UHGV virus genome: UHGV-0310418
DNA from: a virus
Reading direction: 5' to 3' (one strand)
DNA length: 22,968 nt
In this document: positions 18,899 to 19,060 of the stretch, one piece after another
Layout: every line of letters starts with the position of its first letter
How positions within the stretch are numbered: the stretch's first letter is position 1
Made by a program: the position numbers and the translations under genes
Notes under the pieces: model-generated
Seen by the model: the letters and a program-made list of their open reading frames with translations, nothing else
Databases searched by the model: none
What the model was told of the DNA's origin: nothing

Positions 18899-18995
18899 TG
18901 GTTTCTCCACAAATTTTTATCCACGAGCGGGACTGCACTCCCTTTTCGTTGATGCAGGATGAACTTACTGCGATTTTTAATAGTTATCAAGGATA

Positions 18996-19015
18996 CACTG
19001 TTCATAAATACAGTA
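18996..19015. promoter_or_regulatory. Candidate LexA (SOS) box CACTGTTCATAAATACAGTA
   Basis: CTG-N10-CAG with 16 of 20 matches to TACTGTATATATATACAGTA; in the 160-bp gap between the RusA stop and the KilA-N start. Confidence 0.5.
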
Positions 19016-19060
19016 TCTTTAACGAGGTAATACCCAAATTTAGGGTGTTGCTCAATTCCG

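What the first reader, a model, noticed from the sequence alone, without database searches (positions are those of the whole stretch)
18899..19060. Candidate SOS (LexA) box in the gap upstream of the KilA-N / DUF968 / Q genes
CACTGTTCATAAATACAGTA (18996..19015) matches the CTG-N10-CAG LexA consensus at 16 of 20 positions. It sits in the only sizeable intergenic gap of the otherwise overlapping early-right operon, upstream of KilA-N, DUF968 and Q. A LexA-controlled internal promoter here would give a DNA-damage-responsive route to Q, and hence lysis, that bypasses part of repressor control.
Basis: partly seen in the sequence, partly recalled or inferred. Interest (0 to 1): 0.55.

Follow-up and report, generated by a model that had tools for sequence, protein, structure and literature searches.

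The report
SOS (LexA) operator before prophage kilA-N
The flagged 20-base palindrome is a real, strong match to the binding site of the bacterial DNA-damage repressor LexA, sitting at a small promoter in front of a prophage gene (kilA-N) that is followed by the late-gene activator Q; this is a familiar kind of prophage wiring, not a new one, and whether it can trigger lysis on its own is unproven.

Summary
CACTGTTCATAAATACAGTA lies at 18996-19015, in the only sizeable gap (162 nt) of a minus-strand operon: lexA-like, rusA, gap, kilA-N, DUF968, Q. It matches the LexA consensus at 16 of 20 positions. On a heterology-type index it scores 5.2, in the range of recA and sulA. About 5e-4 such sites are expected per window by chance.

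The best sigma-70 promoter in the gap is TTGATA-17-TAAGTT. It starts 5 bp downstream of the box and points at kilA-N. Its key positions are invariant in three diverged relatives. LexA-like boxes recur upstream of kilA-N orthologues in about eight other genera (9 of 35 upstream classes at p<0.01). In Erwinia and Serratia they overlap the predicted -10.

It is biologically doubtful, because complete relatives carry self-cleaving CI repressors.

- A phage-encoded LexA DNA-binding-domain paralogue lies two genes upstream.
- A very stable plus-strand hairpin-plus-terminator element abuts the box, resembling lambda oop.

Verdict: a new member of a known kind.

The parts
18996..19015 (.). LexA (SOS) box. 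Plus strand reads CACTGTTCATAAATACAGTA; on the gene strand it reads TACTGTATTTATGAACAGTG.
   Evidence: HI-like score 5.16. SfIV and E. coli AZ187 carry TACTGTATTTATGAACAGTA, scoring 3.96. It is intact in all gap-bearing loci fetched (about 48).
18985..18990 (-). Putative -35 hexamer TTGATA of the kilA-N promoter.
   Evidence: Best promoter in the 200 nt upstream of kilA-N, 11.5 bits. T and G are invariant in the alignment with AZ187, L050 and L093. This is a prediction only. It falls below the tool's consensus threshold and below the 95th percentile of shuffles (12.0 bits).
18962..18967 (-). Putative -10 hexamer TAAGTT, 17-nt spacer. The inferred start is near 18955.
   Evidence: T1, A2, A3 and T6 are invariant in four alleles that are only about 50-70% identical around it (TAAGTT, TAAGGT, TAATCT).
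18929..18942 (-). Conserved 5'-UTR hairpin GGGA-GUGCAG-UCCC. The extended fold spans 18919-18953.
   Evidence: In 19 distinct sequences from several genera the loop TGCAG is invariant and all 5 stem pairs change on both sides. Covariation is 0.58 against 0.25 in shuffles, 0 of 500. Fold. No Rfam match.
18905..18908 (-). Shine-Dalgarno GGAG of kilA-N, within the conserved TGTGGAGA.
   Evidence: Invariant across genera in alignments A3 and A5.
18083..18898 (-). kilA-N gene (271 aa). N-terminal KilA-N domain; the C-terminal part is shared with proteins annotated Ant, Rha or antirepressor.
   Evidence: Pfam PF04383, E 1.3e-15. PHROG 129. tblastn against phages.
17086..18081 (-). DUF968/HNH gene, 1 nt after kilA-N.
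16320..17072 (-). Antiterminator Q gene, 13 nt after DUF968.
   Evidence: Pfam PF03589, E 1.5e-53. No strong minus-strand terminator between 18900 and 16320.
19018..19092 (+). Structured plus-strand element. A 10-bp stem with three G.U pairs (19026-19035 with 19043-19052), then an intrinsic-terminator hairpin (19065-19086) and a U-run (19088-19092). It overlaps the rusA 3' end.
   Evidence: MFE -27.3 kcal/mol, z -5.2, 0 of 200 shuffles. Terminator scan. It is always linked to the gap in 186 E. coli genomes. It is absent from relatives L050 and L093 and weakened in AZ187.
19453..19779 (-). Phage-encoded LexA N-terminal-domain paralogue (108 aa, no S24 protease domain).
   Evidence: Pfam PF01726, E 2.9e-19. 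43% identical to E. coli LexA residues 1-86, with the recognition helix and an Ala-Gly aligned with A84-G85. The best PDB matches are LexA.

Best explanation
The 20-mer is a genuine, high-affinity operator for the host SOS repressor LexA. It sits at the upstream edge of a modest sigma-70 promoter (TTGATA-17-TAAGTT, start near 18955 on the minus strand). That promoter gives kilA-N its own transcript, independent of the phage pR promoter.

In an undamaged lysogen, LexA sits on the box at about -60 to -41. There it reaches the -35 hexamer and the AT-rich upstream region and keeps the promoter low. After DNA damage, RecA-stimulated LexA cleavage frees the promoter. The mRNA starts a few bases before a conserved stem-loop with loop GUGCAG. 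It then carries kilA-N and, because the genes are packed and no terminator is predicted, probably DUF968 and Q as well.

Shown here: the sequence quality of the box, its improbability by chance, the gene order, the conservation of the promoter positions, and the recurrence of LexA-like boxes at orthologous loci.

Inferred: LexA binding, repression, the transcription start, and read-through to Q.
For: - Box quality and chance.
- In SfIV the box is the only strong LexA site in the whole 39.8-kb genome (HI 4.0, next best 12.6).
- Promoter: it is the top-scoring candidate in the window, AZ187 and L093, in each with the box centre at -50.5. The -10 positions T, A, A and T are invariant and there are no indels between box, -35 and -10 in four diverged alleles.
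- Recurrence: 11 of 35 non-redundant kilA-N upstream classes have a box with HI of 14 or lower within 150 nt, against 22 of 1321 control windows (Fisher p 8e-11).
- With composition-matched simulations, 9 of 35 classes have p<0.01 (binomial p 6e-11). The genera are Raoultella, Rahnella, Serratia, Buttiauxella, Rosenbergiella, Edwardsiella and Erwinia.
- In Erwinia (TTGCCA-17-TATATT, 14 bits) and Serratia the box overlaps the predicted -10, the classical repression geometry.
- Alleles without the gap have neither promoter nor box.
- Precedent: LexA boxes in the nin region of Gifsy prophages drive dinI-antirepressor operons (PMC3121763).
Against: - There are no experimental data for this locus in the searchable literature.
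- The promoter is weak by consensus. It is not reported by the scan, and 11.5 bits is below the 95th percentile of shuffles (12.0).
- In this lineage the box is upstream of the -35, which is not the usual place for LexA repression.
- Several orthologous boxes have one degenerate half-site (TTGT, ATGT or GTGG instead of CTGT), so they may bind LexA weakly or bind something else.
- The box-bearing classes fall into about five or six lineages, not eleven independent events.
- My weight matrix was rebuilt from memory.
Confidence: 0.6

Rival explanations
1. The box mainly controls a short plus-strand antisense RNA of about 72-108 nt, ending at the terminator 19065-19092. The RNA would be complementary to the rusA 3' end and the rusA-kilA spacer. 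This would be an analogue of lambda oop, whose pO region carries a LexA site and whose RNA overlaps the 3' end of cII. The box would then act at or just downstream of that promoter. This reading is not exclusive of the best explanation, because the box could serve divergent promoters.
For: The plus strand 19018-19095 folds at -27.3 kcal/mol, z -5.2. Three G.U pairs make the first stem specific to the plus strand. A canonical intrinsic terminator with a U-run exists on the plus strand only. The box lies directly upstream, and its right half holds TACAGT as a possible -10. The lambda precedent is described in PMC5869508. Erwinia L113 also has an antisense-oriented hairpin with a T-run just upstream of its kilA promoter.
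Against: - Plus-strand promoter candidates are poor: 8.3 and 6.6 bits, below the shuffle mean of 8.9.
- The element is confined to one E. coli/Shigella allele. It is missing from L050 and L093, which keep the box, promoter and hairpin.
- In the one diverged allele (AZ187) all four substitutions hit stems, and the fold drops to -15.2 kcal/mol, z -1.3.
- There is no Rfam family.
Confidence: 0.2
2. The relevant binder is the phage's own LexA-domain protein (19453-19779), alone or in competition with host LexA. It could act as an uncleavable repressor that re-closes the promoter after induction. It could instead be an activator, like GIL01 gp6, a truncated LexA homologue that switches on that phage's late promoter.
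For: The protein is a LexA N-terminal-domain homologue. Its recognition helix is nearly identical to LexA: SVNAAVEHLRALEKKG against SPNAAEEHLKALARKG. It is encoded 400 nt upstream in the same operon. A box position just upstream of the -35 suits an activator better than a repressor. The GIL01 gp6 precedent is 44% identical to its host LexA and binds at the -35 (PMC6182141).
Against: - Gene and box are not coupled. Phages without the gap keep the gene at 95-99% identity and have no box near it.
- The Rahnella, Serratia and Erwinia loci have a box but no lexA-like gene within 3 kb.
- The protein lacks the LexA dimerisation domain.
- Residue 45 of the recognition helix varies among homologues.
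- A centre at -50.5 is off the usual activator phasing.
Confidence: 0.12
3. One reading: the physiologically important product of the LexA-controlled transcript is Q. DNA damage then turns on late genes and lysis without passing through CI/Cro control.
For: kilA-N, DUF968 and Q are separated by 1 and 13 nt with no strong terminator. The window seems to have lost its immunity region, and a second LexA box lies at its right end. LexA may therefore be the main brake left in this particular element.
Against: - The promoter is weak and single-copy, and Q proteins act above a threshold (general lambda knowledge; also sketched in PMC2327240).
- Complete relatives have self-cleaving CI, so a bypass would cause lysis without virions at low SOS levels.
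- The box-promoter-hairpin module travels with kilA-N, not with Q, across genera.
Confidence: 0.25
4. The box is an inert relic or a chance palindrome with no regulatory role in this element.
For: There is no direct functional evidence. The core pattern alone is expected 0.3 times per window. The geometry relative to the promoter is atypical.
Against: The full-site expectation is 5e-4 per window. The site is intact in all gap-bearing loci seen, and its only polymorphism moves towards the consensus. Similar boxes recur at orthologous positions in other genera.
Confidence: 0.08

Closest known systems
LexA-controlled dinI-antirepressor loci of Salmonella Gifsy-1/2/3 prophages (Lemire et al. 2011, PMC3121763)
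   Same: A LexA box sits at an internal promoter in the region between the replication genes and Q of a lambdoid prophage. This gives SOS-dependent expression of a gene outside the immunity region, independent of the phage repressor.
   Different: The Gifsy repressors are not self-cleaving and need the antirepressor; relatives of this element have S24 CI repressors. The downstream genes are small dinI and antirepressor genes, not kilA-N/DUF968/Q. The Gifsy boxes are preceded by sense-oriented terminators and lie about 19 nt from the ATG; here the terminator-like hairpin is antisense-oriented and the box is 97 nt from the ATG. There is no sequence similarity.
Chromosomal E. coli SOS operators (recA, sulA, umuDC and others; Lewis 1994 and Fernandez de Henestrosa 2000, recalled from memory)
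   Same: CTGT-N8-ACAG palindrome with an AT-rich spacer. The score lies in the range of strongly bound operators.
   Different: Those operators usually overlap the -35, the -10 or the transcription start. This one ends 5 bp upstream of the predicted -35.
Lambda oop RNA and its promoter pO with a LexA site (PMC5869508, citing Lewis 1994)
   Same: A LexA site lies next to a short, terminator-ended element that is antisense to the 3' end of an early-right gene.
   Different: Lambda oop overlaps cII; this element overlaps rusA. Here the promoter is not evident, the RNA is unverified, and the element is not conserved outside one allele.
Bacillus phage GIL01 late promoter P3, controlled by host LexA and the truncated LexA homologue gp6 (PMC6182141)
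   Same: The phage encodes a LexA DNA-binding-domain-only protein about 43-44% identical to host LexA. A LexA box lies at a promoter leading to late functions.
   Different: GIL01 is a tectivirus with no CI repressor. gp6 binding and activation are demonstrated there. Here gene and box occur independently of each other and nothing is demonstrated.

Membership tests
Gammaproteobacterial LexA operator (SOS box) | Inverted repeat CTGT-N8-ACAG with an AT-rich spacer | tested here: met
   CTGTTCATAAATACAG at 18998-19013, the only exact match in the window.
Gammaproteobacterial LexA operator (SOS box) | Overall divergence from consensus within the range of operators that bind LexA (low heterology index) | tested here: met
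   HI-like score 5.16, or 3.96 in SfIV. The 28 reference operators score 2.1-14.4. The published low-HI mode is about 7.3 and the high mode about 22 (PMC12527982). The matrix was rebuilt from memory, so values are approximate.
Gammaproteobacterial LexA operator (SOS box) | Position at or overlapping a promoter so that binding blocks RNA polymerase | tested here: inconclusive
   The box ends 5 bp upstream of the predicted -35, with its centre at about -50.5. In the Erwinia and Serratia orthologous loci the box overlaps the predicted -10.
Gammaproteobacterial LexA operator (SOS box) | LexA binding in vitro or in vivo, and lexA/recA-dependent induction | not testable with these tools
   No data were found in the library.
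LexA-controlled prophage antirepressor module (Gifsy gfoA/gftA/gfhA type) | LexA box at a promoter outside the immunity region, downstream of the replication genes | tested here: met
   Gene order O, PerC, dam, lexA-like, rusA, box, kilA-N.
LexA-controlled prophage antirepressor module (Gifsy gfoA/gftA/gfhA type) | The controlled gene encodes an antirepressor | tested here: inconclusive
   KilA-N domain plus a C-terminal region similar to proteins annotated Ant or antirepressor at 28-47% identity. No PDB or NCBIfam match. No functional data.
LexA-controlled prophage antirepressor module (Gifsy gfoA/gftA/gfhA type) | The prophage repressor is not self-cleaving, so induction depends on the antirepressor | tested here: not met
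   The CI repressors of SfIV and PhiR49_1, which carry the same box, have Peptidase_S24 domains, E 1.5e-26. The window itself holds no cI.
Lambda oop-type LexA-linked antisense RNA | Short transcript unit ending in an intrinsic terminator, antisense to the 3' end of an early-right gene | tested here: inconclusive
   Terminator and strong strand-specific fold are present. No convincing promoter. Not conserved in relatives.
GIL01 gp6-type phage LexA homologue acting at a phage promoter | The phage encodes a LexA DNA-binding domain without the protease domain | tested here: met
   108 aa. PF01726, E 2.9e-19. TIGR00498 match covers positions 1-91 of 203 only.
GIL01 gp6-type phage LexA homologue acting at a phage promoter | The homologue's gene and its target site occur together | tested here: not met
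   The gene occurs without the box in phages lacking the gap, and the box occurs without the gene in Rahnella, Serratia and Erwinia.

The most novel reading that the evidence does not exclude
This lambdoid element runs a two-LexA switch. Host LexA keeps the kilA-N/DUF968/Q promoter shut in the lysogen. After induction, the phage's protease-less LexA paralogue takes over the same operator, and perhaps host SOS boxes too. The paralogue keeps the recognition helix and the Ala-Gly loop. It would either re-silence the promoter or activate it, which would be a proteobacterial counterpart of GIL01 LexA/gp6. The conserved GUGCAG hairpin and the plus-strand oop-like element would add RNA-level control of entry into Q expression.
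Probability: 0.1. Interest if true: 0.75.

Novelty: new member of a known kind. Interest (0 to 1): 0.4.

Why it matters
If LexA does gate kilA-N (and Q), this widespread prophage module would express a KilA-N/Ant-like protein directly on DNA damage, independently of its own CI repressor. The module is present in 186 of 5426 complete E. coli genomes, including O104:H4, and in Shigella serotype-converting phages SfIV and VIT_AJPSC. Such wiring bears on cross-talk between co-resident prophages, on the timing of lysis, and on the behaviour of defective prophages that have lost their immunity region. The recurrence of LexA-like boxes before kilA-N orthologues in several enterobacterial genera gives a concrete, cheap experimental handle on the unknown function of this KilA-N family. 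The adjacent LexA-domain paralogue and the conserved hairpin are the less ordinary leads.

Tried and rejected
- Rfam, on the region at E of 1 or lower and on the whole window at gathering threshold: nothing in the gap, only two cspA thermoregulators elsewhere.
- Consensus promoter scan of 18600-19400: no hit on either strand, so I used my own weight-matrix scan with recalled frequencies.
- Sense-strand terminator before the box, as in Gifsy: none. The hairpins found carry their T-runs on the plus strand.
- Small ORFs in the gap. On the minus strand there is a 36-aa ORF from ATG 19005, inside the box, whose stop overlaps the kilA ATG. On the plus strand there is a 50-68-aa ORF at 18898-19104. 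I rejected both as coding. Neither has a Shine-Dalgarno sequence. The 36-aa ORF's ATG is not conserved in L093, and its frame changes in the 11-nt-deletion alleles. The plus-strand ORF runs through the terminator.
- Distant blastn of the gap and of its 90-nt plus-strand element: found only in the same rusA-kilA context.
- The TGCAG hairpin as a terminator: there is no U-run on the sense strand. An antisense T-run exists only in the E. coli-type lineage.
- Exact search for the Panacea-ymfL junction in viral contigs: no hit.
- Literature searches for this locus (KilA-N with DUF968, LexA with rusA and KilA, Yaguchi 2011): nothing usable.
- PDB, NCBIfam and PADLOC searches for the KilA-N protein: uninformative.

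Full report
**Context**

All genes around the finding are on the minus strand. In the direction of transcription the order is:
- a YmfL-family (cII-like) gene
- ymfM
- a replication O-like gene
- PerC/yfdN
- dam
- a 108-aa LexA_DNA_bind protein (19453-19779)
- rusA (19061-19456)
- the 162-nt gap (18899-19060)
- kilA-N (18083-18898)
- DUF968/HNH (17086-18081)
- antiterminator Q (16320-17072)

Holin, endolysin, spanin and terminase follow. Every other junction from ymfL to Q is between -34 and +13 nt, so this is indeed the only sizeable gap. The rusA-to-kilA segment is 99.6% identical to Escherichia phage PhiR49_1 and 98.9% identical to Shigella phage SfIV. The gap occurs in 186 of 5426 complete E. 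coli genomes, including O104:H4, always between rusA and kilA-N. A second group of phages (Stx2a_1447, SfII, mEp460 and others) has a kilA-N allele about 70% identical, placed only 19 nt after rusA. That group has no gap and no box.

**The observation**

The sequence and coordinates are right, and the match to TACTGTATATATATACAGTA is 16 of 20. On the gene strand the box reads TACTGTATTTATGAACAGTG. The core CTGT-N8-ACAG alone is not significant: 0.31 are expected per window.

I therefore scored all 20 positions with a symmetrised heterology index built from 28 E. coli operators that I recalled from the literature. This is an approximation, not the published matrix.
- The site scores 5.16, next to recA and sulA. 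The SfIV and AZ187 variant, ending in A, scores 3.96.
- The exact expectation for such a score is 4.6e-4 per window and about 1e-5 for the gap.
- In 4 Mb of Markov-simulated sequence nothing reached even 8.3.
- In the complete SfIV genome this is the only strong LexA site: 4.0 against a next best of 12.6.

**Promoter**

The tool's consensus scan finds no promoter on either strand. A weight-matrix scan with recalled frequencies gives TTGATA (18990-18985), a 17-nt spacer, and TAAGTT (18967-18962) as the best candidate. It lies on the gene strand and scores 11.5 bits, which alone is about the 90th percentile of shuffles.

Comparison is what gives it weight. I aligned the window with E. coli AZ187 (about 90% identical in the gap), an IMG/VR contig (L050, kilA-N 74% identical) and a Raoultella prophage (L093, 64% identical).
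- The T, A, A and final T of the -10 are invariant, as is TG of the -35.
- No indel separates box, -35 and -10.
- The same hexamer pair is the top candidate in AZ187 and L093.

The inferred start is near 18955. This places the box at about -60 to -41, ending 5 bp before the -35. That is not the classical LexA position and is the main weakness of the repression model for this lineage.

**Recurrence elsewhere**

I fetched kilA-N relatives from viral contigs and from one genome per species. I reduced the full-length orthologues to 35 non-redundant upstream classes.
- Eleven classes have a LexA-like box (score 14 or lower) within 150 nt of the start codon, against 22 of 1321 control windows from the same loci (Fisher p 8e-11).
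- With composition-matched simulations of each upstream region, 9 of 35 have p<0.01 (binomial p 6e-11).
- The genera are Raoultella, Rahnella, Serratia, Buttiauxella, Rosenbergiella, Edwardsiella and Erwinia.

These represent perhaps five or six lineages rather than eleven independent events. Several boxes have one degenerate half-site (TTGT, ATGT or GTGG).

In Erwinia a strong predicted promoter, TTGCCA-17-TATATT at 14 bits, has the box across its -10. The same geometry is predicted in Serratia. A LexA-type operator at a kilA-N promoter is therefore a recurrent, facultative feature of this gene family. That is the best support for the functional reading.

**What the transcript would carry**

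Immediately after the inferred start lies a stem-loop, GGGA-GUGCAG-UCCC (18942-18929), followed by a conserved TGTGGAGA ribosome-binding region. Across 19 distinct sequences the loop TGCAG is invariant, while all five stem pairs change on both sides. Covariation is 0.58 against 0.25 in shuffles, 0 of 500. The hairpin is also present in the phages without the gap, inside the rusA 3' end. Proteus and Morganella orthologues have a hairpin with a different loop. Rfam has no match and its role is unknown. Downstream, kilA-N, DUF968 and Q are 1 and 13 nt apart. No convincing minus-strand intrinsic terminator lies between them, so read-through to Q is plausible but not shown.

The LexA-controlled internal promoter is the best-supported reading; I put it at about 0.6, and LexA binding as such higher. 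The further claim is a damage-responsive route to Q and lysis that bypasses repressor control, and it is weaker.
- The CI repressors of SfIV and PhiR49_1 carry S24 self-cleavage domains, so these phages do not need a bypass.
- A LexA-only route to Q would risk lysis without virions.
- The module travels with kilA-N, not with Q.
- The KilA-N protein has a C-terminal region shared with proteins annotated as Ant or antirepressors, but nothing is known about its function.

The closest known system is the LexA-controlled dinI-antirepressor locus in the nin region of Gifsy prophages (PMC3121763). This locus works like that system but fails one of its defining features, the non-cleavable repressor.

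**Rivals found on the way**

First, the plus strand next to the box (19018-19095) folds at -27.3 kcal/mol, z -5.2. It forms a 10-bp stem containing three G.U pairs, so the stem forms on that strand only. A canonical terminator hairpin and U-run follow, inside the rusA 3' end. With a LexA box directly upstream, this looks like lambda oop, whose pO region has a LexA site (PMC5869508). Against it:
- No decent plus-strand promoter exists.
- The element is confined to one allele.
- It is absent from the relatives that keep the box and promoter.
- It is degraded in AZ187.

I give it about 0.2. It is not exclusive of the main model.

Second, the phage encodes a LexA N-terminal-domain paralogue two genes upstream. 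It is 43% identical to LexA and its recognition helix is almost the same. An Ala-Gly aligns with the LexA cleavage site, and there is no protease core. GIL01 gp6 shows that such a protein can activate a phage late promoter (PMC6182141). However, gene and box occur independently of each other, so a dedicated pairing is unlikely (about 0.1).

**Other context**

The window's right end (22828-22968) is the start of a Panacea-domain gene fused in frame to ymfL. Its upstream region carries the window's second-best LexA box (22925-22944, score 8.3). In an E. coli genome where that gene is intact, two more boxes lie just upstream. No complete E. coli genome or viral contig has this junction. The element in the window may therefore have lost its immunity region. 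If so, LexA could be the main remaining brake on its early-right operon. This is speculative, because the sequence beyond 22968 is not available.

**Verdict**

This is a real, high-quality SOS box at a plausible, conserved kilA-N promoter. It is a new member of a known kind (LexA-controlled prophage genes outside the immunity region) and is of moderate interest. The paralogous LexA-domain gene, the conserved GUGCAG hairpin and the oop-like element are the leads most worth an experiment.

Noticed in passing
window 19453-19779 (- strand): Phage-encoded 108-aa LexA N-terminal-domain paralogue. It is 43% identical to E. coli LexA and its recognition helix is nearly identical. An Ala88-Gly89 aligns with the LexA cleavage site, but there is no S24 protease core. 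The C-terminal tail LLAGEENARLRA..WL.ERG is conserved in Citrobacter and IMG/VR homologues. It occurs in phages with and without the box.
   Followed up: partly
window 18929-18942 (- strand; extended fold 18919-18953): Stem-loop with an invariant TGCAG loop 25-40 nt before the kilA-N start, conserved across several genera with compensatory stem changes (covariation 0 of 500 shuffles). There is no Rfam family and its function is unknown. Proteus and Morganella orthologues use a different loop (UGUACGG or UAUACGG).
   Followed up: partly
window 19018-19092 (+ strand): Very stable two-hairpin element, z -5.2. The second hairpin is an intrinsic terminator with a U-run inside the rusA 3' end. It could be an oop-like antisense RNA next to the LexA box. 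It is confined to this E. coli/Shigella allele and degraded in strain AZ187.
   Followed up: partly
window 22828-22968, box at 22925-22944; L008 2921-3044: The right end of the window is the 5' end of a Panacea-domain gene fused in frame to ymfL. Just upstream is a LexA-like box (score 8.3). Where the Panacea gene is intact (E. coli CFSAN018748, next to a dusA fragment), three boxes (6.0, 6.8, 8.3) lie within about 120 nt. The junction was not found in 5426 E. coli genomes or in viral contigs, so the immunity region may be deleted in this element.
   Followed up: partly
window 15106-15545 and 11860-12275 (- strand): Two cspA-type thermoregulator leaders (Rfam RF01766, 157 and 114 bits), each with a cold-shock-domain gene (15169-15384 and 11906-12121). 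One lies on either side of the lysis genes, like morons in the late operon.
   Followed up: no
L170 (Shigella phage SfII) 29167-29186: Near-perfect LexA box TACTGTTTTTATATACAGTA (score 2.0) inside the annotated cI ORF of a phage that lacks the kilA-N gap.
   Followed up: no
L060 6561, L088 6176, L091 6156, L099 5951, L118 5460, L013 4573, L017 6485: Strong LexA boxes (scores 4-7) also occur 2.5-3.5 kb downstream of kilA-N, beyond Q, in several related prophages from E. coli, Kluyvera, Rosenbergiella and Providencia. SOS boxes may therefore be common around the late-regulatory region.
   Followed up: no
window 18896-19005 (- strand): A 36-aa ORF starts at an ATG inside the LexA box, and its TGA stop overlaps the kilA-N ATG. 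In the 11-nt-deletion alleles and in L050 the same ATG is in frame with kilA-N. It has no Shine-Dalgarno sequence and the ATG is not conserved in L093, so it is probably not translated.
   Followed up: yes
L006 (E. coli GB089) 1109-2221: An IS421 transposase is inserted in rusA just upstream of the gap, leaving the box, promoter and kilA-N intact.
   Followed up: no
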